A stretch of 64,000 nt of DNA from a virus (lineage: Duplodnaviria; Caudoviricetes): positions 30,927 through 94,926 of the IMG/VR virus record IMGVR_UViG_3300042997_000757, one strand, 5' to 3'. Under the pieces are notes generated by a model. The model saw only the letters and a list, made by a program, of their open reading frames with translations. It did no database searches and was not told where the DNA came from. The translations under genes were made by a program, and so were the position numbers. Shown here in pieces: positions 50,856 through 60,424 of the stretch. How positions within the stretch are numbered: the first letter of the stretch is position 1; each line of letters begins with the position of its first letter.

Positions 50856-51005
50856 TCATGCAGGGGTATCGGGTCGCTCTAACGGTGTTTCATTAGGTGT
50901 CTGTGGTTTGATTGTTTCTAAGTATTCGGCGTATTCTTCATCAGTCATTTCCCGATTACCATAGGTTCCATCTTCAAGAATTGTTGCTAATTGTGGTTTT
51001 GTCAT
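50856..51005 (-). CDS. Small tail-fibre-associated protein (49 aa)
   Basis: Not in the ORF track; ATGA coupling; REMTDEEYAEY motif. Confidence 0.6.
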   Translation of the reverse strand: MTKPQLATILEDGTYGNREMTDEEYAEYLETIKPQTPNETPLERPDTPA

Positions 51006-51727
51006 GCTTTGCGTACTCCCATCAAACTCCAGGAACCGTTGAGATTAGAACTGCCAGTGAATCTTATTTTGTCAAATGAGTTTGTGGCAGCGTAGTTGCT
51101 GTACGCACCCGTAAGACTGCGAGTGTTGTTCGTGTCGTACGCTTGAATGGTTGTTGCAAATACACCATTCCCGATGCCTCTGATGAAAGAAGTGACCAAC
51201 GTTGGCGGAGCGTTGACACAGTCGGTTACGTAGAAATTAACTCCAGCGTTTCTAGAGTCTTGGACTCCCGTAGTGCCTAAATAACTAGTAAAAAATGTTG
51301 CCCCATAATAAGTGGTGTTTCTTGCGGTAGCACCCGAAAATAGGACACCAGTAATGCCAGTCGCCGAGGCAGAACCGATTGACATTCTTAATTCGTAAAA
51401 TAAATAGTCCGATGTAAAACCTGTTACGTCAAAACTTACCGCACCTGAAAAAGAACCGCTACTGATATACACAAGCCCGCTGTTGCCGACAGCAGTACCA
51501 CCCGAAACCTGTTGCCAAGCAGCCCCACCCCAAACATACGACAAATCCGTATCAGTTTCATAGATGACCTGCCCCTCATACGGGGCTGTGGGGCGTGTGC
51601 TACTAGTAAACACACCAACCCCAGCCACAGCGTTTATCGCCCACTTGCCGTCAGTGTACGACCATACTTTACCCCCAACCGTAAAGGTGTCTCCGGCGGT
51701 TGGTGAGTTTGGGAAATCTATAGCCAT
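51002..51727 (-). CDS. Tail fibre/receptor-binding-like protein
   Basis: IDFPNSP..GD.F......W...GKW; TSSTRP.APYEGQ.IYETDT; GLVYI beta-rich C-terminal domain. Confidence 0.7.
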   Translation of the reverse strand: MAIDFPNSPTAGDTFTVGGKVWSYTDGKWAINAVAGVGVFTSSTRPTAPYEGQVIYETDTDLSYVWGGAAWQQVSGGTAVGNSGLVYISSGSFSGAVSFDVTGFTSDYLFYELRMSIGSASATGITGVLFSGATARNTTYYGATFFTSYLGTTGVQDSRNAGVNFYVTDCVNAPPTLVTSFIRGIGNGVFATTIQAYDTNNTRSLTGAYSNYAATNSFDKIRFTGSSNLNGSWSLMGVRKA

Positions 51728-51761: not shown

Positions 51762-52106
51762 CTATGCCCACCAAAAGTGCTTAAGTATTGCTAAGGAAGC
51801 AAGCACAATCCAGACTACGTTGAAAAGGATAATGGTAGGAAGGGTTTTCTTAGTGGAAGTCCAAATAAGACTTGCGCTTGAAACAATGGCAAAGATGTAA
51901 AGCCACCACCACTGTTTACCAAAGAGAAGACCGGGGAAGATAATTGCAATCTTTGTTGAAAAACCCCATGCTTCTACGGTATTGACACGATTCCAGTACT
52001 TCTTGGAACTCATAGTCTTGATGGCGTTAAATATCTTGTTGTCCATTTTTGGTTTCTTAATAAAAGGTTTGTAAGTATCCCCAAGTAGGGAAGATAGATC
52101 ATCCAT
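51762..52106 (-). CDS. Trp-rich small membrane protein
   Basis: About 3 hydrophobic segments; TAATG coupling. Confidence 0.65.
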   Translation of the reverse strand: MDDLSSLLGDTYKPFIKKPKMDNKIFNAIKTMSSKKYWNRVNTVEAWGFSTKIAIIFPGLLFGKQWWWLYIFAIVSSASLIWTSTKKTLPTIILFNVVWIVLASLAILKHFWWA

Positions 52107-52774
52107 TAAAACAGTTCCTCTAGTGTGTCTTCAAATGACTTTTCTGGGTAGTCAACTGACAACTGTAGTACCCATGCTTTAAAGACTTCAGAAACCTCTG
52201 GATATGGGTAAGGTATCTTTTTGTAATTGGGGTTACCCTTTAGAAACATTGCAAGATGCATGTCGGGCAAAGCGTCAATCTCATCAATTATTTCTTGGGG
52301 TGGGTTCAAAATATCAAATACTAACTTTGAGTATGTAGCCATTGGGTGGTCAGAATTAAAAGGCTCTTCCACAAGAAATGACCATTCACGGATATTCTTG
52401 AATAATTGAAATATTGATTTTGCTACCCACATTGTTGAGGGAGTGGGATCAGATTCAATATCAAACAAATTATTTAACTCTAAGTATCTAATATAGAAAT
52501 GAGGAACTACCGCTATCGGGTGCTCAAATTTTACAACTTGTGTAACATCTATAATTGCGTCAGAAACAATGGTTGGCGCATATAGTGATAGAGAGTGAGA
52601 CTCGTAAGGGGTGTCATTGGTTAGGAAGACCCCAGTAAACGAAATATTGTCGCATCTCTCACTTTGTCCAACACCAACAGTATCCCCTTCAACCACAAAT
52701 ATGCATTTTTCAAGCATAAATACACCCAAGTCTCTGGGACCAGAGTTTTTTAACAGCCGTTCTGGGTCAAACAT
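52106..52774 (-). CDS. Hypothetical protein
   Basis: 222 aa ORF within the enzyme cassette. Confidence 0.7.
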   Translation of the reverse strand: MFDPERLLKNSGPRDLGVFMLEKCIFVVEGDTVGVGQSERCDNISFTGVFLTNDTPYESHSLSLYAPTIVSDAIIDVTQVVKFEHPIAVVPHFYIRYLELNNLFDIESDPTPSTMWVAKSIFQLFKNIREWSFLVEEPFNSDHPMATYSKLVFDILNPPQEIIDEIDALPDMHLAMFLKGNPNYKKIPYPYPEVSEVFKAWVLQLSVDYPEKSFEDTLEELF

Positions 52775-53039
52775 TTTGTAGTTCCTCTATTTTTTTATTA
52801 ACAACTACCAGATTTTGCACGTTTCTTGCAATTGCTTTTATTGCAATTACTTGTAGGGTAGGGGTGCTCTCGGGGAATTGGGCTTTAAATGTAGATGCAT
52901 CAAAGTGCTCATCATCTATTGATGCTGGATCAATTCCGACAGTTAGACAGTTTTTCTCAATATCAATACACAATGCTGTTTTTACAGCCATGAGCATGTC
53001 TAATTTTTGACTTGCTGTGTTGAGGTTATTTAGTTCCAT
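52767..53039 (-). CDS. Small helical protein, paralogue of 56354..56596
   Basis: MELN...SQKL...GIDP...VV..KI. Confidence 0.7.
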   Translation of the reverse strand: MELNNLNTASQKLDMLMAVKTALCIDIEKNCLTVGIDPASIDDEHFDASTFKAQFPESTPTLQVIAIKAIARNVQNLVVVNKKIEELQNV

Positions 53040-53844
53040 TCGTGGACCCTCGGCTAGGTAGAAGTCTACTAATTATACTTTTTTTACTTAAGGCAATATC
53101 ATCAAGTTCTTTGTCAACCCTGATCCGTTCACGACGATATGGCGCTGCGGTTCCTTCTGCTGGCATCACATGTCCAAACCCAAACCCTTTGTTGGCAACA
53201 TACTTATAGTTTGACTCGTCGGCAAGTATTAATTTGTCTATGTTTGTTTTTCTCTCAAACGGGATTATGTGCACTAAAGGAGTTCCGTACTTGATAGTAA
53301 ACTCTTTTTCTGAAGTTACATTCAAAACAACATTAGCCGTGTGGTAAAAATCAGTATGAACAACTGCTGCCATTATTGAGTAATTGTTGTTTGGTTCCCA
53401 ATATGCAGGAAGCATCAAACATGACCAACCCGGTGCTGTCTCAATCTTCCACGGATTAACTATTTTTGGAAATGCTGCTTGTTTTGTACTTTCTGGACGC
53501 ACTTTAGTAACTGGGCATTCTCCTGTTGATTCATATGGGAATCCCTGCATTGAAGCAATTTTAATGTTGTTTATTTCATGCCCAAATTCATCCCCTCGGG
53601 TTTCCCAATCCCCATTACCGTCAGGTCTAAATTTAAAGTTTGTCCAAGATGGGAGGGTTACACCAATGCTGAAGAAGTCATTTATACCAGCACAACGTCG
53701 GAGAGAGCCTTCTCCTTTGTGAAGCATTTTAAACCAAGGGCGATGGGTTTCTACGGAATTTTTGTATGGAGGCATCTCTAAAAGACGGTTGTCAGATGGA
53801 GTAATCCTTATTTGTCCGGGTTTTAGTTTTTCTTGCTTTTTCAT
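53026..53844 (-). CDS. dUTPase-like-fold protein (DUF6065-like)
   Basis: PWFK, RRCAGI.D, KIVNPW...TAPGWSCL, VVHTD.Y, I..GTPLVHIIPF.R. Confidence 0.6.
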   Translation of the reverse strand: MKKQEKLKPGQIRITPSDNRLLEMPPYKNSVETHRPWFKMLHKGEGSLRRCAGINDFFSIGVTLPSWTNFKFRPDGNGDWETRGDEFGHEINNIKIASMQGFPYESTGECPVTKVRPESTKQAAFPKIVNPWKIETAPGWSCLMLPAYWEPNNNYSIMAAVVHTDFYHTANVVLNVTSEKEFTIKYGTPLVHIIPFERKTNIDKLILADESNYKYVANKGFGFGHVMPAEGTAAPYRRERIRVDKELDDIALSKKSIISRLLPSRGSTNGTK

Positions 53845-53846
53845 GC

Positions 53847-55349
53847 TCACCATTCCCCGTCAATTGTTAAGAGTTTACGTAGGGCTTCAGCGTGGTCTAT
53901 TAACTCATGGTTATGGCGTTCTTCACGCATTTGAGCAACAGCATTTTCTGCTTCTTTCCTGATGTTTAACCTATCCAAAACTCTCGTTGCAGATTCGGTT
54001 GAAAAGACATTCTGCCCTTGAGCAACATGTGCTAAATGTGGTGTCATGAATAGTTCCATATGCAAATGAGGAACGTCTGAGCGTGTTGGGGGGCGCTCTG
54101 ACCACAGGTCAAGTAATTCCTGCAACTCATGGTTTATCGGCATATCAGACATTGCTTTCCAGAAAGGAGTATCTTGTCTATCACTGTAGTAGTGGAGGCG
54201 AATCATTGTAAGAATGTTTCTCATTACTTCAGAAAACGACTTATTGAAATGCTTTTGAGATTTTGTATAGGAAGAATCGTATGCTGCCATATACGGAATT
54301 AACATTTTTATTTGCTGAATAGTTGAGCCAATACTGGTTGCCTCAAGTGGTTCAACAAAAGAAGAAGCCAAACCAACAGCAGCGCAGTTACCCTTCCATG
54401 TTTCATCTAGATACCCAGCATCAAACTTAAAAGACCTAGGGTTGGTTATCTTGTAACCAGACTTTTCTTCTGCCTCTTTTACAGCCTGCTCATCAGTTAT
54501 AAAGTCAGAGCAATATACGTATCCGTTACCCCTGCGTTCCTGCGTAGGTATTTCCCACATCCAGCCACTGTCCATAGCCATTGCCCGTGTGTATGGGCGA
54601 ATCTGCCCAGACGGGTCTGATTCAGTTGGGAATGCTATTGCGGAATCGCTAAGTAGGTATTTACTAAAAGAGTTCCATTTAGTGTTCCCTATTGCGTTCA
54701 TGAGCACACGCTTAAAACCAGAAGCATCTAGCCAAAAATCTGCTTCCACGATACTTCCCTCTTCTGTAGATACAGAGGAAATGTTTCCATTTTCAGAATT
54801 TTGAGAAACTTTAGAGACTTTACCTTCTACAAATTTGATACTACGCTTAAAGCATAGATGCGTAAAGTATTCATTTAATTTGAAAGTATCAAAGTGAAAC
54901 TGGTTTGTTGAGCGATGTAAACCCATAACTCTAATTTGGTTACGGATTAGCCCAATACTGGTTGTGTTGTTTGTAAACAGTTTTTCATTTTCTAACATAC
55001 TTGTGTATGTTGCATGAATTCCCCACCCAAAAATCTCGTCAATGCCTCCAACACTGTGGAAATACCTAGGAGTTTTTTCAGTCCAACCTTCATACCTAAT
55101 TCCATATTTGTGTGTTGCACTTGAAGCAATAATCATTTCTTCAAGGTCAATGTCACAGTTTTTCATGAACTCAGCCCAGTGTTCTGTACTACCTTCTCCA
55201 ACCCCTACGATCCCGATTTCAGTAGAAGAAATAACAGTAATTTCAGACATTGGAAATGCTTTACGGAGCAAAAGTGCGGAAATAAGACCAGCAGTGCCAG
55301 ATCCAACAATTCCAAAAGATAGTTGATGTGTAAAGTTTTTTGTAATCAT
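53847..55349 (-). CDS. Flavin-dependent (tryptophan halogenase-family) halogenase
   Basis: IVGSGTAG, GVGEGST, ATHKYGI (catalytic Lys position), DASGF, GWMWEIP (WxWxIP), R.GNGYV, FVEPLEATSI. Confidence 0.93.
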   Translation of the reverse strand: MITKNFTHQLSFGIVGSGTAGLISALLLRKAFPMSEITVISSTEIGIVGVGEGSTEHWAEFMKNCDIDLEEMIIASSATHKYGIRYEGWTEKTPRYFHSVGGIDEIFGWGIHATYTSMLENEKLFTNNTTSIGLIRNQIRVMGLHRSTNQFHFDTFKLNEYFTHLCFKRSIKFVEGKVSKVSQNSENGNISSVSTEEGSIVEADFWLDASGFKRVLMNAIGNTKWNSFSKYLLSDSAIAFPTESDPSGQIRPYTRAMAMDSGWMWEIPTQERRGNGYVYCSDFITDEQAVKEAEEKSGYKITNPRSFKFDAGYLDETWKGNCAAVGLASSFVEPLEATSIGSTIQQIKMLIPYMAAYDSSYTKSQKHFNKSFSEVMRNILTMIRLHYYSDRQDTPFWKAMSDMPINHELQELLDLWSERPPTRSDVPHLHMELFMTPHLAHVAQGQNVFSTESATRVLDRLNIRKEAENAVAQMREERHNHELIDHAEALRKLLTIDGEW

Positions 55350-55921
55350 TTAAACCACGTTACCATTGAATATTTAATACCGCTAGTGACTGGATGTGCA
55401 ATGTGTACGTATGGGAAGTTACTAGGAAACAAAATTACCGATCCAGCATCTAAAGAAATAGTTAAATCAAAATTTGGGAATTCCAGTTGACCACCTTCTT
55501 CGGCAGCACCTAAACAAGCAATAGCACTAAACACTCTTGCGGAATCCGGAGAATGGTCATAGTGAGCATGGTACTCAGCAAGACCTGAGTATTTTAGTAC
55601 CGAGATAAGTTCATGAGAACCCCCCGGAAGTTGATTTTCCTCTATGTAGTCAGATACAACATCCATAAATGGTTTATGAACGTCATTTCTATAGATGTTA
55701 GATAAAGGGTTTGCCGGGTAGGGGGGAAGAAGAGTTGTGAGCATGCACGTTAGTGATGTTCTGTGTTGCCCAATTCTCCCATTACCTACTAGCGAAGAAT
55801 TCCATGAAAGGTCTTCTCCAAAGTTATCTTCAATGTTTTCTTCTAGTTTTGAAATAAACACAGATGGGTCAAAAACTTCTCTGTATACATTTATACATAA
55901 ACCGGGTTTTTCTATAATCAT
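55346..55921 (-). CDS. 2OG-Fe(II) oxygenase, prolyl-4-hydroxylase-like
   Basis: LKY....YHAHYD, GGQLEF, G.VILFPSNFPY.H.AHPVTSG.KYS.VTW. Confidence 0.9.
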   Translation of the reverse strand: MIIEKPGLCINVYREVFDPSVFISKLEENIEDNFGEDLSWNSSLVGNGRIGQHRTSLTCMLTTLLPPYPANPLSNIYRNDVHKPFMDVVSDYIEENQLPGGSHELISVLKYSGLAEYHAHYDHSPDSARVFSAIACLGAAEEGGQLEFPNFDLTISLDAGSVILFPSNFPYVHIAHPVTSGIKYSMVTWFK

Positions 55922-56349
55922 GTTACTGTGAAATGCCCTTCGCACAAAGTTCCGTGGTGGGGAGTACTAATTGTAAACGAATAGTCACCCCTCTTGATAA
56001 ATCTATCACGATACTTAACTACGTGGTTTTCTCGCAGTTTAATTTTTGATAAGATGGTACCCTGTTCACCCATAGATGTTATGTACTTGACAGAGCACAA
56101 GGTGTCGTATGGGAAAACAATAAATTCGTTTGTGTAATCAATTGGTTGAATATAGTTAGAAACTACTGTTTTTTTATATTCCAGTTTCCTATATTCAGGT
56201 ATTGAAAGTACGCAAACTTCTGTTTCTAAAGGCTGATCTTCTACACCAATACGAATCGTCAATTTTGTTTCTTTTGCTAAATCAAGGGCTATTTTTGGTA
56301 TTTCTTCATTTTCAAGTGCTGAAAATGGAACATATACTATTCTTTTCAT
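55918..56349 (-). CDS. Hypothetical protein
   Basis: Start revised to ATG 56349 (MKRIVY); TACTAT 6 nt upstream. Confidence 0.65.
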   Translation of the reverse strand: MKRIVYVPFSALENEEIPKIALDLAKETKLTIRIGVEDQPLETEVCVLSIPEYRKLEYKKTVVSNYIQPIDYTNEFIVFPYDTLCSVKYITSMGEQGTILSKIKLRENHVVKYRDRFIKRGDYSFTISTPHHGTLCEGHFTVT

Positions 56350-56353
56350 GCTC

Positions 56354-56596
56354 TTATAGTAATACAGTAACCTTTGCTTTAACAACTTCGTAAGACTGGA
56401 CGAGTTTTCGCAAGCGGGTGACTTCCCCATCCATTCCTTGCATTGATAACGGTTCAAGCGAATCAAGGTCTGTTATCTCAAAAGTGTCAGGGTCAAAACC
56501 CATACGTAGTAAGAGGCTGTAAATTTCGTTGCTCAAAGCAACCGCAGATCCTTGAAGAGCCTGAAGTTTCTGTGCTGATGTGAGGTTGAGTTCCAT
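56354..56596 (-). CDS. Small helical protein, paralogue of 52767..53039
   Basis: AGGAG SD; MELN..SAQKL...GFDP...VV.AKV. Confidence 0.7.
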   Translation of the reverse strand: MELNLTSAQKLQALQGSAVALSNEIYSLLLRMGFDPDTFEITDLDSLEPLSMQGMDGEVTRLRKLVQSYEVVKAKVTVLL

Positions 56597-56603
56597 AATT
56601 CTC

Positions 56604-58256
56604 CTATGTATTAATTAGAATGTAAGCAGAGCCACTTGTTGCAGCCGTAGCGCCAGAGACTAGTGCTCCACCGCTTGTATCGTAAGTAATGGTACCAGAT
56701 ACAGAATCTGTGACCACTAAAATTGCCCCACCACCACCGGGACTTCCCGCTGTTCCTGAAGGGGCGGTGCGTGCAGGTGCGCCTTTGCCAAAAGTGGTTC
56801 CATTATTTATTCCTCCAGCACCCCCAGTCCAGTGCCCGTTTGGTTGTGGAGTGCTTGGGTTTGAGTGGTGACCATGGCGAGCCTTATCAAAAGAGCCAGC
56901 CGTATAATGGTGTGGTCCATGAGCGTGTCCTCCAGATATGCGCATTCCATCACCTTGTTCATTGCCGTGGTGCCCGCCCCCCAAGTCATGCCCGTTTGCG
57001 TGGGTATGTGTGTGACCAACAAGGTTTTGAGCAGCATGGATGTGCCCATCATGCCCACCAGCATGCTGATGATAAACTCGTCCTGCAAAATGACCATAAG
57101 TATCAGGATGAGAGTGTTGTGCTGCATGGTTTGTTTTAGCAGCGGTATGGATAACACTAGGCCAGTTATGAATATGTGTTAGCACTCCATGACCATCATT
57201 TGAGTGTGGGTGATGGCGACTTCCAGTGTGGTGGTAATGCCCAGAGTTGTAGGGGTGCCCGGGTGCATTTGTTGCAGGAAAGTGCCCATATTTACCATGC
57301 TGTGCTGGGGTGTGTGCACCGGGTTGGTGTGGGTGTGGGTTGACTATGTGTGCATGAAAATCAGCAAATCGTGCATAACCGTGGTGGTGGCTAGGGATGT
57401 GCGTAGGCGCAACATGGACTGGAGCGACATGATAGGCAAGGTTTGGCGCTGTTGTTCCGTTAGCGCCGGTAGACCCAGCGGTACCAGTGGTTCCTGCTGT
57501 ACCTAAGTTTCCATTATTTCCAGTAGAAATAAACTTGCCACTTCCAACAATTTGTTTTGCGACTACACAAACAACTGCCCCTCCAAACCCCGACGCTCCA
57601 GCGGCACCCGGAACACCATCTACCCATCCAGTAACATTTCCCGGAGAAGCATCTGAACCCCTACCTCCGGGGACACCAGTAGTTGTGGCATATGGGTTTG
57701 CTGCTGAGTTTACCGAACCTATAGAACCATTTGCACCTGATGCACCTGCTTTATTGGGCCATGTATCAGAGTTAGTTAAGGCAGCAATTGTTGCGCCAGC
57801 AGCGCCAGCGGCTCCAGCAGATCCTCCACCAATAACAATCATCCCTGAGGTGTGCATAAACAAACCTTTAGACATTGCATTTATGTCTTTATACAAAAAT
57901 GAAGGAAGAGCAGTTATGGAACTACCGCCCCCTTGCCCACCAGCCCTGTACGTAATAGCGCCAGTTGAATGTCCAGAGATTGTTTTCCCAGAAACACTTG
58001 ATGCAGCAGGACCAACAACTCCTCCAGAAACAGAACCAACACCTATGTAACCATTTAACGTAAGAGTATTTTTAACAAATATTCTAAAACCATTTGTGTT
58101 TAAAACAACTCCTGAGTTAACCGTCAAATTGTTGTAGTACATATCTGAAGTTATTGTTGTGTCTACTGTTACTACTCCCTCACCGTCTACCCCTGTCCCA
58201 TAGATAGCGTCATTGGCAACACGGGCAACACTTGGTTCATATCTAGATATAGCCAT
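56604..58256 (-). CDS. Gly-rich fibre/adhesin-like protein with a 200-aa His-rich insert
   Basis: Scaffold paralogous to 58260..59021; 47 His counted by hand in codons 57431-56832. Confidence 0.8.
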   Translation of the reverse strand: MAISRYEPSVARVANDAIYGTGVDGEGVVTVDTTITSDMYYNNLTVNSGVVLNTNGFRIFVKNTLTLNGYIGVGSVSGGVVGPAASSVSGKTISGHSTGAITYRAGGQGGGSSITALPSFLYKDINAMSKGLFMHTSGMIVIGGGSAGAAGAAGATIAALTNSDTWPNKAGASGANGSIGSVNSAANPYATTTGVPGGRGSDASPGNVTGWVDGVPGAAGASGFGGAVVCVVAKQIVGSGKFISTGNNGNLGTAGTTGTAGSTGANGTTAPNLAYHVAPVHVAPTHIPSHHHGYARFADFHAHIVNPHPHQPGAHTPAQHGKYGHFPATNAPGHPYNSGHYHHTGSRHHPHSNDGHGVLTHIHNWPSVIHTAAKTNHAAQHSHPDTYGHFAGRVYHQHAGGHDGHIHAAQNLVGHTHTHANGHDLGGGHHGNEQGDGMRISGGHAHGPHHYTAGSFDKARHGHHSNPSTPQPNGHWTGGAGGINNGTTFGKGAPARTAPSGTAGSPGGGGAILVVTDSVSGTITYDTSGGALVSGATAATSGSAYILINT

Positions 58257-58259
58257 GTT

Positions 58260-59021
58260 TTACACCTGTTGAATATAAATTGAGGTTCCTGAGTTCTGAC
58301 CAGTTACATCAGTTGAGATAGATGCAGGAAGGGCACTAGCAGATGATACAACTATAATGACACCGCCACCAGCAGGAGCAGTTGCAGGTGCTTTAATATA
58401 ACCAGTACCTGATGATGGTCCAGAAATGTAACGAGCGGAAACGATTACTACTCCTCCGCCTGCTTGACTATCACCACCTGCGCCACCTCGTAGAAACGTA
58501 GGACCACCAGATGCAGTAATTGAATAACCTGTTATTGCTTGTGGACCAACTCTAAAGTAAGCCGTACCACCAAGGGATGCTAACGGAGCAACTGCCGCAA
58601 ACCCAGTAGCAGAACCACCAAGAGAGTGAGAGACCGCAGTACTTGCCGCTCCACCTTGCTTGATTGAGCCATCAGTTGAATAACCAGTGTTGAACCCAAT
58701 AATTGAGTTGTTGTTTAACTTTAATATATTTTTTACAAAAACACGGTAACCGTTGGGCGCAAGACGAACACCAGCGTTGATAGTCAAATCATTAAAATAT
58801 AGGTCTGATGTCATTGAGTAAACACTTGACGACGGTGCCATGCTTAGAACGGTGGTGGTTCCGTCCAGTACGGCATCGCCATCTGCACCTGTTCCGTACA
58901 CCGAGTCAACACTTTCGTTGTAGTAAGCAACCCAGTAGGAGCCATCCCACTGCCAACTCTTAGAGCCGACAGTATAAACCTGATATTGATAAGGAGAAGC
59001 AGGGAATGTAATTGCTGGCAT
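58260..59021 (-). CDS. Gly-rich fibre/adhesin-like protein
   Basis: ITFPASP...W.WDG..W N-terminal module; YGTGADG, NGYRVFVKN, GGGVVIV motifs. Confidence 0.75.
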   Translation of the reverse strand: MPAITFPASPYQYQVYTVGSKSWQWDGSYWVAYYNESVDSVYGTGADGDAVLDGTTTVLSMAPSSSVYSMTSDLYFNDLTINAGVRLAPNGYRVFVKNILKLNNNSIIGFNTGYSTDGSIKQGGAASTAVSHSLGGSATGFAAVAPLASLGGTAYFRVGPQAITGYSITASGGPTFLRGGAGGDSQAGGGVVIVSARYISGPSSGTGYIKAPATAPAGGGVIIVVSSASALPASISTDVTGQNSGTSIYIQQV

Positions 59022-60424
59022 TACTGACTATCCCTGTACCCATAGATGCGAACAATTCCGCCAGTCATGGTTCCGCCAGTTAATGACAAAACAAAACCTG
59101 TGCTAGATAGGTCTGCTGAATCTCTTCCAGAACGCCAACTAACATAAGTATCGGTTGCGCTTTGCGCCATCACTTGAGAATCAGTAGTAAGAAACGGACT
59201 AATCAAGTCAAGTGTTATAGATGTTAAACCTTGCCCTGTCCCTATTGACCAAAGAGTTGTGTTAGAAGCAACCTCTGTTGTTATTGCTGCTGAAGAGTAA
59301 GGAATGTTCATATTGGCTGTTGAATATGTTGAACCTGTGCTGCTACCTAATTGGAGTCGTACTCCGCACAGTGTGCTGCAAGTTGTATTTTGTATAATTA
59401 TTTTATAGTTATCGTACGGCGCACTAAACGCACTTCCAACGGTCACCGACGAAACAGCAGAACCGATAGTTATTACGCCGCCCGACGCTGTGCCACCCGA
59501 TGAACAGGTTGCTGTTGTAATCAACTCCAAACCTGTTGGGTTTTGTGCAGGGCTGTTAGGAACAACCCATGCTGAGCCGTTCCACACAAGCAAACGGTTC
59601 GTATCGGTCTCGTAAGTTGTCTGACCTACCCACGGCGCAGATGGACGAGTAGAAGATGTTGCTTGGTATGGCGACATTGTGCCACCACCAAGTTCAACCC
59701 ATGCTGAGTTGTAGTAGATGTAAGTAGCACCAGTAGTTGTATCAAACCAGAGGTCTCCAGCAGATGGAGAAACTGGGGCAGTTGCAGAACTTGTTAGCGG
59801 AGCGCCTGCACCTGTTGGTCCTGTTGCACCAGTAGGACCAGTGGCACCAGTAGGACCCGTCGGGCCTACGGGTCCCTGTGTTTGTGGTCCAATCTCAATC
59901 CACTGAGAATCGTAGTAAACAAAAGTTTTACCTGTGTCGGATTCAAACCAAATCTGACCAGCAGCAGGAGAACTTGGAGCGGTGTCTGAGATTGTTGCCC
60001 CACCTGCGGCAGAGGCGTTTACCCACGCTGTACCGTTGTATTGCAATACCTGATTGGTGGCAACGCTGGTTATTGTTACGTCTGAAAGATCATCAATAGA
60101 GCCGACAGTAGATGTAGTGCCCGGAACAAACTTGGCTCCGTCAAATTTAAGTACTTGGTTGCTAGTAGCACCAGTTGTGTCTACTTCAATGCCATCAATG
60201 AAGAGAGTAGGTACTTTTAGGGTGTCGTCAGTTCTAAGGACGTTTGCTTCGTCACGGTAGAGGTTTACATCACCAACAGCAGTTCCATCGCCCCATACAA
60301 GGCGACCTCCACCTTGAACTTGAAGTCTTGCATAGGCATCTTGGTCTACGAAAATAGTCAACCCGTCAGAGCCAGCAGATGACAACTGCCTGATTGTAAT
60401 TGGGGTTATAAATTTCTGTGCCAC
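59021..60424 (-). CDS. Tail fibre protein with a collagen-like segment
   Basis: IDDLSDV, APSSP.AGQIWF, (GPT/GAT)n repeats, TSSTRP module. Confidence 0.8.
   Translation of the reverse strand: MAQKFITPITIRQLSSAGSDGLTIFVDQDAYARLQVQGGGRLVWGDGTAVGDVNLYRDEANVLRTDDTLKVPTLFIDGIEVDTTGATSNQVLKFDGAKFVPGTTSTVGSIDDLSDVTITSVATNQVLQYNGTAWVNASAAGGATISDTAPSSPAAGQIWFESDTGKTFVYYDSQWIEIGPQTQGPVGPTGPTGATGPTGATGPTGAGAPLTSSATAPVSPSAGDLWFDTTTGATYIYYNSAWVELGGGTMSPYQATSSTRPSAPWVGQTTYETDTNRLLVWNGSAWVVPNSPAQNPTGLELITTATCSSGGTASGGVITIGSAVSSVTVGSAFSAPYDNYKIIIQNTTCSTLCGVRLQLGSSTGSTYSTANMNIPYSSAAITTEVASNTTLWSIGTGQGLTSITLDLISPFLTTDSQVMAQSATDTYVSWRSGRDSADLSSTGFVLSLTGGTMTGGIVRIYGYRDSQ

What the first reader, a model, noticed from the sequence alone, without database searches (positions are those of the whole stretch)
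51762..58256. Candidate virion-fibre modification system: His-rich adhesin followed by a halogenase/2OG-oxygenase cassette
Seen: a fibre-type gene with a 47-His insert is followed by tightly coupled, co-oriented genes: small helical protein, unknown, P4H-like 2OG-Fe(II) oxygenase, flavin-dependent halogenase, dUTPase-fold protein, a paralogue of the small helical protein, unknown, Trp-rich membrane protein. The block sits among tail-fibre genes, not in the DNA metabolism region. Known: this halogenase family halogenates aromatic rings; 2OG oxygenases hydroxylate Pro/His/Asp in proteins; phage halogenases exist (cyanophage VirX1) but to my knowledge their natural substrates are unknown. Inference: the cassette post-translationally halogenates/hydroxylates His/Tyr/Trp/Pro in the fibre, a RiPP-like tailoring of a structural protein. 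A loose analogy is the Gly/His-rich, zinc-hardened, halogenated polychaete jaw.
Basis: partly seen in the sequence, partly recalled or inferred. Interest (0 to 1): 0.9.

Follow-up and report, generated by a model that had tools for sequence, protein, structure and literature searches.

The report
Halogenase cassette behind His-rich fibre protein
An uncultured 95-kb tailed phage carries, inside its tail-fibre genes, a histidine-packed surface-type protein that is always inherited with a halogenase, a prolyl-hydroxylase-like oxygenase and a dUTPase-fold protein. This gives a concrete but unproven candidate for what viral halogenases act on.

Summary
A 550-aa beta-solenoid protein has 47 His in a 200-residue insert. 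Tightly coupled genes follow it: an 80-aa helical protein, an unknown of about 143 aa, a P4H-like 2OG-Fe(II) oxygenase, a flavin-dependent halogenase, a dUTPase-fold protein, a paralogue of the small protein, an unknown and a Trp-rich membrane protein. Fibre-like genes flank the block on both sides.

- In 122 non-redundant related loci, every scaffold protein with at least 11 His per 100 aa (85) has a halogenase nearby; only 3 of 37 with fewer His do.
- The halogenase-free sister group carries Tyr/Phe/Pro-rich inserts at the same site. It keeps the oxygenase and dUTPase-fold genes and sometimes adds hydroxyproline-type GlcNAc-transferases. This points to protein tailoring.
- Cyanophage Syn10 (VirX1) has an analogous neighbourhood.

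There are three caveats. On the scaffold tree the halogenase state changes only once, so the correlation is one evolutionary event. Distant phage halogenases sit away from fibre genes. No chemistry has been shown.

The enzyme trio was described for Syn9 in 2010 and was read then as metabolite synthesis. This scan had already noted the His-rich-fibre theme in at least seven other genomes. I file it as a new variant of a known kind.

The parts
58260..59021 (-). Short (253-aa), His-poor beta-solenoid scaffold protein, paralogue of the N-terminus of the His-rich protein
   Evidence: BLASTP E 2e-16 to the 550-aa protein. AlphaFold2 model pLDDT 84; the model resembles beta-solenoid proteins such as bactofilins, adhesins and tailspikes, Z 5-8. 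It stands directly next to the long protein in nearly all related loci.
56604..58256 (-). Long (550-aa) scaffold protein with a low-complexity insert; proposed substrate
   Evidence: 49 His and 100 Gly. N-terminal scaffold match at hhalign 99.1%; a weak C-terminal match. Relatives are 350-820 aa with 15-43 His per 100 aa.
56832..57431 (-). His-rich insert (residues 276-475), preceded by a Gly-X-Y run
   Evidence: 47 His in 200 residues. No tandem DNA repeats. Across 55 distinct His-rich proteins (window included; a few are not scaffold proteins) the insert averages 21.9% His against 0.8% elsewhere, with no sequence conservation. HxH and HH are not enriched beyond composition.
56354..56596 (-). 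80-aa helical protein, paralogue of 52767-53039
   Evidence: BLASTP E 1e-5 between the two. A homologue is found by tblastn in 20 of 80 loci and falls in the same cluster in others.
55918..56349 (-). Conserved unknown of about 143 aa, always just upstream of the oxygenase
   Evidence: Start choice. The family is found in both halogenase-bearing and halogenase-free cassettes. No Pfam, PHROG or Atlas lead.
55346..55945 (-). P4H-like 2OG-Fe(II) oxygenase
   Evidence: PF13640 E 4.8e-10. Nearest solved structures are 3itq and 5hv0, prolyl 4-hydroxylase. H128-x-D130...H181 and K/R191 are conserved in 96 relatives. It is the only PF13640 gene in the genome.
53847..55349 (-). Flavin-dependent halogenase of the Trp-halogenase family
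   Evidence: PF04820 E 3.7e-103. PDB 9luq at E 1e-57 and VirX1 (6qgm) at E 1.5e-45. GxGxxG, K81, GWxWEIP and E333/E336 are conserved in 60 relatives. It is the only copy in the genome.
53026..53853 (-). dUTPase-fold protein with an invariant Cys and a C-terminal long helix (DUF6065-like; Syn9 gp43 / Syn10 CPUG_00130 family)
   Evidence: for the fold. C54 is invariant. The Syn10 homologue matches at hhalign 97.7%. It is present in 75 of 80 halogenase loci, and as 2-3 paralogues in halogenase-free cassettes.
52767..53039 (-). 90-aa paralogue of the 80-aa helical protein
   Evidence: An sm80-family gene holds this position in L013, L021 and L047.
52106..52774 (-). Unknown 222-aa protein, a variable member of the cassette
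   Evidence: Found in 23 of 80 loci. No family match.
51762..52106 (-). Trp-rich 114-aa membrane protein at the end of the block
   Evidence: 9 Trp. 55-95% identical in 43 of 80 loci, the best-conserved protein of the block.
59021..60424 (-). Flanking fibre protein with a collagen-like GPT/GAT run
   Evidence: phrog_9729 tail fibre, E 7e-22; the repeat is visible.
51002..51727 (-). Flanking fibre-like protein downstream of the cassette
   Evidence: It shares the fibre repeat motif with 59021-60424 and clusters with the fibre proteins.

Best explanation
The block is a late-operon protein-tailoring cassette of the phage's fibre module.

The proposed substrate is the long beta-solenoid protein. 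Between its last rungs it carries a projecting insert: a short Gly-X-Y stalk followed by a 200-residue stretch that is 23% histidine. The proposed steps, all inferred rather than shown, are:
- The P4H-like 2OG-Fe(II) oxygenase hydroxylates residues of this insert, most likely prolines.
- The flavin-dependent halogenase uses host-supplied reduced flavin, oxygen and halide to halogenate electron-rich rings in the insert. Given how the halogenase is distributed, these are probably imidazoles, or the Tyr/Trp next to them.
- The dUTPase-fold protein, the 143-aa protein and the small helical paralogues are non-catalytic or unknown helpers. They belong to the constant core of the cassette, not to the halogenase specifically.
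- The likely outcome is a chemically altered adhesive or metal-binding tip on a virion appendage.
For: Shown:
- Tight translational coupling from the fibre genes through the cassette.
- The scaffold pair, oxygenase, halogenase and dUTPase-fold gene are co-inherited in about 70 of 80 loci, down to 40% halogenase identity. They also occur together in p253-seeded loci, in a distant representative, P0059, and in rearranged loci L047-50, L078, L080 and L083.
- Contingency over 122 unique loci: at least 11 His per 100 aa, halogenase in 85 of 85; at most 10 His, halogenase in 3 of 37.
- The insert site is the same in all lineages, but its composition switches between His-rich, Tyr/Phe/Pro-rich and Cys-rich, while the PF13640 oxygenase and DUF6065-type genes stay.
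- The Tyr/Pro-rich lineage adds PF11397 GlcNAc-transferases. From my own knowledge of Pfam, this is the Skp1 hydroxyproline GlcNAc-transferase family, which acts on a P4H product in proteins (pathway: PMC3515798).
- The nearest solved relative of the oxygenase is a peptidyl prolyl 4-hydroxylase.
- Catalytic residues of both enzymes are conserved.
- Tyr-rich inserts lack a halogenase, so Tyr alone is not what the halogenase follows.
- Syn10, the home of VirX1, has Gly-rich proteins with His-rich C-termini, then two halogenases, a dUTPase-fold homologue, a 73-aa helical protein and 2OG oxygenases.
- VirX1 is a trimer with a large open active site that accepts bulky substrates (PMC8407142).
Against: - Halogenase presence changes only once on the scaffold tree, so the His-halogenase correlation is a single event with no statistical independence.
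- Three halogenase-bearing loci have His-poor inserts (L038, L239 and one other). L071 and L072 have halogenase, dUTPase-fold protein and four oxygenases but no His-rich gene within 8 kb.
- Distant phage halogenases lie among metabolic and tRNA genes, not fibres.
- To my knowledge no flavin-dependent halogenase is known to act on histidine. Natural chlorohistidine is known only from a sponge peptide (PMC7460063).
- There is no evidence that the protein is in the virion.
- The window's Gly-X-Y run has no proline.
- The dUTPase-fold partner could point to a nucleotide-type substrate instead.
Confidence: 0.45

Rival explanations
1. The enzymes make or alter a free small molecule, such as a halogenated and hydroxylated amino-acid-derived metabolite, during infection. 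This is what was proposed for the Syn9 cluster and for jumbo cyanophages. On this view the fibre genes are only neighbours, because this region is a hot spot for gene insertion.
For: - This is the published reading of the same enzyme trio (PMC2938197) and of a larger cyanophage cluster (PMC7824862).
- VirX1 halogenates many free aromatic compounds (PMC8407142).
- Distant homologues sit among metabolic genes.
- L071 and L072 lack a His-rich gene.
- The dUTPase-superfamily partner suggests a nucleotide-like ligand.
Against: - The window has no peptide synthetase, carrier protein, carbamoyltransferase or exporter.
- The cassette is translationally coupled to structural genes.
- The oxygenase and dUTPase-fold genes follow the scaffold protein even where there is no halogenase.
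- Sister cassettes carry protein-type glycosyltransferases.
- The composition of the insert and the set of enzymes change together.
Confidence: 0.27
2. The His-rich insert is simply a metal-binding or adhesive tip (Fe, Zn, Ni or Cu) that needs no covalent modification. The enzymes act on another target, for example a host surface component, or the collagen-like fibre proteins upstream in the case of the P4H-like enzyme.
For: - 22% His is typical of metal-binding stretches.
- Collagen-like Gly-X-Y runs occur in the neighbouring fibre gene and in the scaffold proteins themselves, with Pro in the Y position in P0054.
- The P4H relative hydroxylates collagen-like peptides.
Against: - HxH and HH spacing is no more frequent than composition predicts, unlike ordered fibre iron sites.
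- This reading does not explain why the halogenase is kept only with His-rich inserts.
Confidence: 0.15
3. There is no functional link. The gene order is inherited within one phage family and the enzymes are passengers.
For: There is a single change of halogenase state on the tree. All loci belong to related uncultured myoviruses.
Against: - Linkage survives inversions and transpositions of the gene pair.
- It spans 40-98% halogenase identity while the insert sequence turns over completely.
- An analogous arrangement exists in a T4-like cyanophage.
- Catalytic residues are under clear constraint.
Confidence: 0.1

Closest known systems
Syn9/Syn10-type cyanophage dioxygenase-halogenase cluster (Iyer, Abhiman, de Souza, Aravind 2010, NAR; PMC2938197), which includes VirX1 (PDB 6qgm)
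   Same: [quoted passage not shown] Here that protein has an invariant C54 and matches Syn10 CPUG_00130 at hhalign 97.7%. Gly/His-rich proteins lie upstream in both.
   Different: This cassette has one oxygenase rather than ten, one halogenase rather than two, and no JmjC enzyme. The upstream protein is a beta-solenoid with a 200-aa His insert, not a PF21722 Gly-rich protein; no homology between them was detected. Halogenase identity to VirX1 is low (E 1.5e-45). The published reading was metabolite synthesis.
Skp1 prolyl-hydroxylation and glycosylation pathway (PhyA P4H plus Gnt1 GlcNAc-transferase) of Dictyostelium and Toxoplasma
   Same: A P4H-type oxygenase is paired with a PF11397-type transferase acting on one protein. 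This pairing occurs next to the same scaffold in the sister cassettes L170 and L173.
   Different: The window itself has no glycosyltransferase; a halogenase takes that place. The substrate would be a phage surface protein, not Skp1. That PF11397 is the Gnt1 family comes from my own knowledge of Pfam and was not re-tested here.
Peptide-acting flavin-dependent halogenases of RiPP pathways (for example MibH, PDB 5uao)
   Same: They belong to the same enzyme family (5uao at E 6.6e-43) and show that the family can act on ribosomal peptides. That 5uao is MibH, and that MibH acts on a ribosomal peptide, is from my own knowledge.
   Different: Those enzymes target Trp in short processed peptides made with leader-dependent machinery. 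Here the candidate is a 550-aa structural protein that is rich in His and poor in Trp.
His/Gly-rich, halogenated, metal-hardened Nereis jaw proteins
   Same: The composition is similar (His, Gly), and so is the idea of halogenated aromatic residues in a structural protein.
   Different: This is an analogy only. Jaw halogenation is not known to use flavin-dependent halogenases (my own knowledge). No homology was tested or is expected.

Membership tests
Flavin-dependent (Trp-type) halogenase, PF04820 | GxGxxG flavin-binding motif | tested here: met
   G16-x-G18-x-x-G21 is 100% conserved in 60 relatives. PF04820 E 3.7e-103.
Flavin-dependent (Trp-type) halogenase, PF04820 | Catalytic Lys, WxWxIP motif and active-site Glu | tested here: met
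   K81 is 100% conserved. In GWxWEIP the flanking G, the first W, and the E and P are 100% and the second W is 90%. E333 and E336 are 98%.
Flavin-dependent (Trp-type) halogenase, PF04820 | Halogenating activity and identity of the substrate | not testable with these tools
   Needs an enzyme assay and mass spectrometry.
P4H-like 2OG-Fe(II) oxygenase, PF13640 | HxD...H iron triad and a basic 2OG-binding residue | tested here: met
   H128 and D130 are 89% conserved (the remainder are gaps). H181 is 97%. Position 191 is K in 75% and mostly R in the rest.
P4H-like 2OG-Fe(II) oxygenase, PF13640 | Peptidyl-proline hydroxylation | not testable with these tools
   The only indication is similarity to B. 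anthracis P4H at E 8e-4.
dUTPase (enzyme) | Trimeric dUTPase beta-barrel fold | tested here: met
   Z up to 9.5, with the top 22 rows all dUTPase or dCTP-deaminase chains. Foldseek E 4e-5. The family profile hits only dUTPases in the PDB. The oligomeric state was not tested.
dUTPase (enzyme) | Catalytic Asp of motif 3 and the Arg/Gln of motif 4 | tested here: not met
   In the profile alignment the family's consensus motif vvHtDyY lines up with dUTPase GVIDSDY, so His stands where the first Asp is. By my recollection of E. coli Dut numbering that first Asp is the catalytic one. Motif 4 (RIAQ in dUTPases) reads tPlaq in the family consensus. It is therefore a superfamily member, probably not a dUTPase.
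Syn9 gp43-type 'conserved-cysteine dUTPase-fold' protein (Iyer et al. 2010) | Conserved Cys, dUTPase fold, and a place beside halogenase and dioxygenases | tested here: met
   C54 is invariant in 35 sequences. hhalign 97.7% to Syn10 CPUG_00130. tblastn hits Syn9 gp43. Adjacent to the halogenase in 75 of 80 loci.
Syn9-type dioxygenase-halogenase cluster | Tandem array of many distinct dioxygenases, including a JmjC/MINA-type member | tested here: not met
   The whole 94.9-kb genome has one PF13640 gene, and the cassette has no JmjC hit.
RiPP biosynthetic cluster | Short precursor with a leader peptide, a recognition element and a maturation protease | tested here: not met
   The candidate substrate is a 550-aa protein. 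No protease or recognition-element family was found in the cassette. The resemblance lies in the logic only.
Fibre with ordered HxH iron sites (T4 gp37 / P2 gpV type) | Excess of HxH spacing | tested here: not met
   HxH observed/expected = 1.01 and HH = 0.97 over 81 proteins.
Virion tail-fibre protein | Presence in the virion | not testable with these tools
   Only context supports it: fibre genes on both sides, a beta-solenoid fold, and the same scaffold fused to a collagen repeat and a type IV pilin-type N-terminal motif in other proteins.

The most novel reading that the evidence does not exclude
Viral VirX1-type flavin-dependent halogenases have a ribosomal protein as their natural substrate. 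On this reading they halogenate histidine imidazoles (or the adjacent Tyr/Trp) in a hypervariable, disordered tip of a virion appendage. This would be one branch of a wider, undescribed family of phage cassettes that chemically tailor low-complexity fibre inserts by hydroxylation, glycosylation or halogenation.
Probability: 0.25. Interest if true: 0.85.

Novelty: new variant of a known kind. Interest (0 to 1): 0.7.

Why it matters
The natural substrate of viral flavin-dependent halogenases is unknown: the halogenase review lists no biosynthetic cluster for VirX1 (PMC8407142). The many 2OG oxygenases of aquatic phages have been read as metabolite, DNA-repair or 2OG-level enzymes (PMC3037559, PMC2938197).

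This locus and its roughly 120 relatives give a specific, clonable candidate substrate and a built-in comparison: His-rich inserts with a halogenase, against Tyr/Pro-rich inserts with glycosyltransferases.

If the proposal is confirmed, it would add enzymatic halogenation and hydroxylation to the known ways in which phages diversify their host-contact structures. It would also extend flavin-dependent halogenase chemistry to protein histidines.

Tried and rejected
- Megablast of the block against cultured phages found no match.
- tblastn of the short scaffold protein against cultured phages found no match.
- A Pfam scan of 16 short scaffold proteins found nothing meaningful.
- No relation was detected between the scaffold and the Syn10 PF21722 Gly-rich protein, by BLASTP or by hhalign.
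- The extra 250-aa genes c28 and c11, which lie next to some halogenases, are not detectable paralogues of the dUTPase-fold protein.
- A search for longer fused scaffold forms gave one weak hit.
- The Atlas gave no lead for the 143-aa unknown.
- Promoter-like and terminator-like sites are no more frequent than in shuffled sequence, so transcription units could not be drawn.
- There are no tRNA genes in the window and no PF01613 flavin reductase in the genome. The halogenase must rely on a host reductase.
- The independent-contrast test has no power: two supported pairs, p = 1.
- Scaffold homologues in cellular genomes lack the cassette, apart from two phage-like contigs binned into one gammaproteobacterial MAG. 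No host was assigned.
- The VirX1 paper itself is not held in the library.

Full report
**The window.** The 64-kb window is part of a 94.9-kb IMG/VR virus record that CheckV rates as complete. Its genes all lie on the minus strand. They identify a myovirus: DNA polymerase, helicases, baseplate, sheath, portal and large terminase. It has no close cultured relative.

**Observation.**
- The 550-aa product of 56604-58256 has 49 His, of which 47 lie in residues 276-475.
- Its first ~70 residues match the adjacent 253-aa His-poor protein (E 2e-16; hhalign 99.1%). A weak C-terminal match places the His stretch inside a shared scaffold.
- An AlphaFold2 model of the short paralogue (pLDDT 84) is a beta-solenoid. 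It resembles bactofilins, adhesins, autotransporter passengers and tailspikes only at Z 5-8, so the fold class is clear but no specific relative is.
- Downstream come an 80-aa helical protein; an unknown that most likely starts at 56349 (143 aa); a PF13640 oxygenase whose nearest solved relative is Bacillus anthracis prolyl 4-hydroxylase; a PF04820 halogenase; a 275-aa protein; a 90-aa paralogue of the 80-aa protein (E 1e-5); an unknown of 222 aa; and a 114-aa Trp-rich membrane protein.
- From 59021 to 51762 all junctions are overlaps or gaps of at most 7 nt.
- Fibre-like genes flank the block on both sides, and the terminase lies about 2.7 kb further on.

**The 275-aa protein.**
- The model is confident (pLDDT 89.5).
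- Foldseek's best hits are dUTPases.
- An independent all-against-representatives search puts 22 dUTPase or dCTP-deaminase chains on top (Z up to 9.5), then drops to Z 4.5.
- A sequence profile of 35 family members hits only dUTPases in the PDB, aligned over motifs 3-4 (best E 1.6e-3).
- In that alignment a His stands in place of the first Asp of motif 3, which I take to be the catalytic Asp, and the motif 4 Arg and Gln are gone. It is therefore a diverged superfamily member rather than a dUTPase.
- It has an invariant Cys and is homologous to Syn10 CPUG_00130 and Syn9 gp43. [quoted passage not shown]

**Conservation of the block.** A scan of IMG/VR with the halogenase returned 80 loci at 40-98% identity.
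- tblastn of the window's proteins against them found the dUTPase-fold gene in 75, the oxygenase in 73, and both scaffold proteins in 69, in the same order. Most of the remainder are contig ends.
- The long scaffold protein is His-rich in nearly all: 15-40 His per 100 aa. Over 55 distinct His-rich proteins the insert averages 21.9% His, against 0.8% outside it. Insert length varies from 60 to 300 residues and the sequence is not alignable.
- Loci seeded with the short scaffold protein show the same block whenever enough downstream DNA is present.
- Where the order is rearranged, the scaffold pair stays within about 5 kb of the halogenase: on the opposite strand in L047-50, and downstream in L078, L080 and L083.
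- The catalytic residues of the halogenase (GxGxxG, K81, GWxWEIP, E333/E336) and of the oxygenase (HxD...H, K/R) are conserved across 60 and 96 relatives.

**The wider family.** A profile of the scaffold finds 2145 representatives in 1.84 billion proteins. Of the best 150, 21 are His-rich.
- Non-His members carry a low-complexity insert at the same position, with other compositions: Tyr/Pro/Phe-rich, Cys-rich, or Tyr/Ser/Gly repeats such as NNYSYGYSY. In P0054 the insert is preceded by a Gly-X-Y run with Pro in the Y position.
- Their neighbourhoods keep the PF13640 oxygenase (often two) and two or three DUF6065/dUTPase-fold paralogues, and often the 143-aa family. They have no halogenase.
- Instead, some have two or three PF11397 GlcNAc-transferases (L170, L173), some a GT61 and a nucleotidyltransferase (L174), and some a weak FkbM-type methyltransferase (L196).
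- From my own knowledge of Pfam, PF11397 is the family of the Skp1 hydroxyproline GlcNAc-transferase. That enzyme acts after a prolyl 4-hydroxylase on a protein (pathway: PMC3515798). I take this as the strongest indirect sign that the enzymes beside this scaffold are protein-tailoring enzymes and that the insert is their target.

**Contingency and its limit.** I used HMMs built from the loci on all fetched DNA and reduced the set to 122 unique, informative loci.
- Inserts with at least 15 His per 100 aa have a halogenase in 81 of 81 loci.
- Inserts with 11-14 His have one in 4 of 4.
- Inserts with at most 10 His have one in 3 of 37.
- However, the two groups also differ in gene order, and on a tree of the scaffold domain the halogenase state changes only once. 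The table therefore reflects one ancient split followed by long co-retention, not many independent events. The independent-pairs test has no power.
- Exceptions exist. L038, L239 and one other locus have a halogenase but a His-poor insert. L071 and L072 have halogenase, dUTPase-fold protein and four oxygenases next to a CBM5/12-bearing fibre protein, with no His-rich gene.

**A second lineage.** In cyanophage Syn10 the order is as follows:
- two PF21722 Gly-rich proteins whose C-termini are locally His-rich;
- a 164-aa protein;
- two halogenases, of which the second (531 aa) corresponds to VirX1;
- the dUTPase-fold homologue;
- a 73-aa helical protein;
- at least five 2OG or JmjC oxygenases.

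I found no homology between the PF21722 proteins and the scaffold here. If the parallel is real, it is analogous rather than inherited. In HTVC008M the halogenase sits with PhyH-type dioxygenases between the terminase genes. In P-SSM2, S-PM2 and S-RIM44 it lies among metabolic, tRNA or hli genes with no such neighbour. The family as a whole is therefore not tied to fibre genes; the clade at 40% identity or more is.

**Mechanism.** The best-supported model is a tailoring cassette in which the P4H-like oxygenase and the halogenase modify the insert of the long scaffold protein. Co-inheritance, coupling, intact active sites and the switch of enzyme set with insert composition are shown. The substrate, the residues modified and the virion location are inferred.
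- Tyr-rich inserts do without a halogenase, so histidine or its immediate context is the most economical target. This would be new chemistry for the enzyme class. The held literature gives natural chlorohistidine only in a sponge peptide (PMC7460063).
- HxH and HH are no more frequent than composition predicts. This argues against an ordered gp37-type iron-binding strand and for a disordered, composition-driven region.
- The dUTPase-fold protein, the 143-aa protein and the small helical proteins belong to the constant core, since they are also present without a halogenase. They are therefore not halogenase-specific partners such as a dedicated flavin reductase, and none is encoded in the genome.

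**Rivals.**
- The published reading of the enzyme trio is synthesis of halogenated metabolites (PMC2938197; PMC7824862 for a larger cluster). VirX1's promiscuity with free aromatics fits it (PMC8407142). It remains the main alternative. It explains the loci without His-rich genes and the nucleotide-type fold of the partner. It does not explain why the oxygenase and dUTPase-fold genes follow the scaffold gene across lineages, or the protein-type glycosyltransferases.
- A purely metal-binding insert with the enzymes acting elsewhere cannot be excluded.
- Plain inherited synteny cannot be excluded either.

**Novelty.** The enzyme neighbourhood has been known since 2010, so this is not a new kind of system. 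What differs is the tie to a beta-solenoid protein with a hypervariable insert, the His-versus-Tyr/Pro contrast with matching enzyme sets, and the resulting substrate hypothesis. I found none of these in the held literature. Earlier agents of this scan reported the same His-rich-fibre and halogenase theme in at least seven other genomes, and one of their notes led me to the 2010 paper, which I then read. I file it as a new variant of a known kind, of good interest because it makes an open question directly testable.

Noticed in passing
window 51762-52106 (-): The 114-aa Trp-rich membrane protein is the best-conserved protein of the block: 55-95% identity in 43 of 80 loci, against 40-66% for most of the halogenases. 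It also ends the cassette in L071, which lacks a His-rich gene. Its function is unknown.
   Followed up: partly
L196:3294-4715 and similar (L188, L198, L201-L204): Sister-clade scaffold proteins carry striking Tyr/Ser/Gly repeat inserts (NNYSYGYSYGYSY...) followed by a small His/Tyr/Trp cluster. Two PF13640 oxygenases and two or three DUF6065 paralogues lie downstream, with no halogenase.
   Followed up: partly
L170:11510-17650, L173:11983-17669: Phage loci pair a P4H-like oxygenase with two or three PF11397 GlcNAc-transferases behind a Tyr/Phe/Pro-rich scaffold protein. This may be a phage version of hydroxyproline glycosylation.
   Followed up: partly
L002:11775-12098 (+), Synechococcus phage S-H38: An unannotated ORF encodes a signal-peptide-like start followed by about 70 residues with 28 His, 4.3 kb downstream of that phage's halogenase.
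   Followed up: no
L003 (Pelagibacter phage HTVC008M): The halogenase and a PhyH-type dioxygenase sit between the small and large terminase genes. Four more dioxygenases lie upstream of the neck genes.
   Followed up: no
P0010, P0078, P0128, P0036: The same scaffold domain occurs fused to a type IV pilin N-methylation motif (1764 aa), an Acyl_transf_3 domain, a Laminin_G_3 domain and a collagen repeat. In cellular genomes the domain occurs without the enzyme cassette.
   Followed up: partly
window 59021-60424 (-): The fibre protein directly upstream has a short collagen-like run (GPV GPT GPT GAT GPT GAT GPT GAG) with Pro in the X position.
   Followed up: no
L253, L254 (Gammaproteobacteria MAG SP183 contigs): Two contigs of 62 and 73 kb, binned into one MAG, each carry the full cassette. 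They are probably phage contigs, and they are the only such hits among 185,579 species genomes.
   Followed up: no
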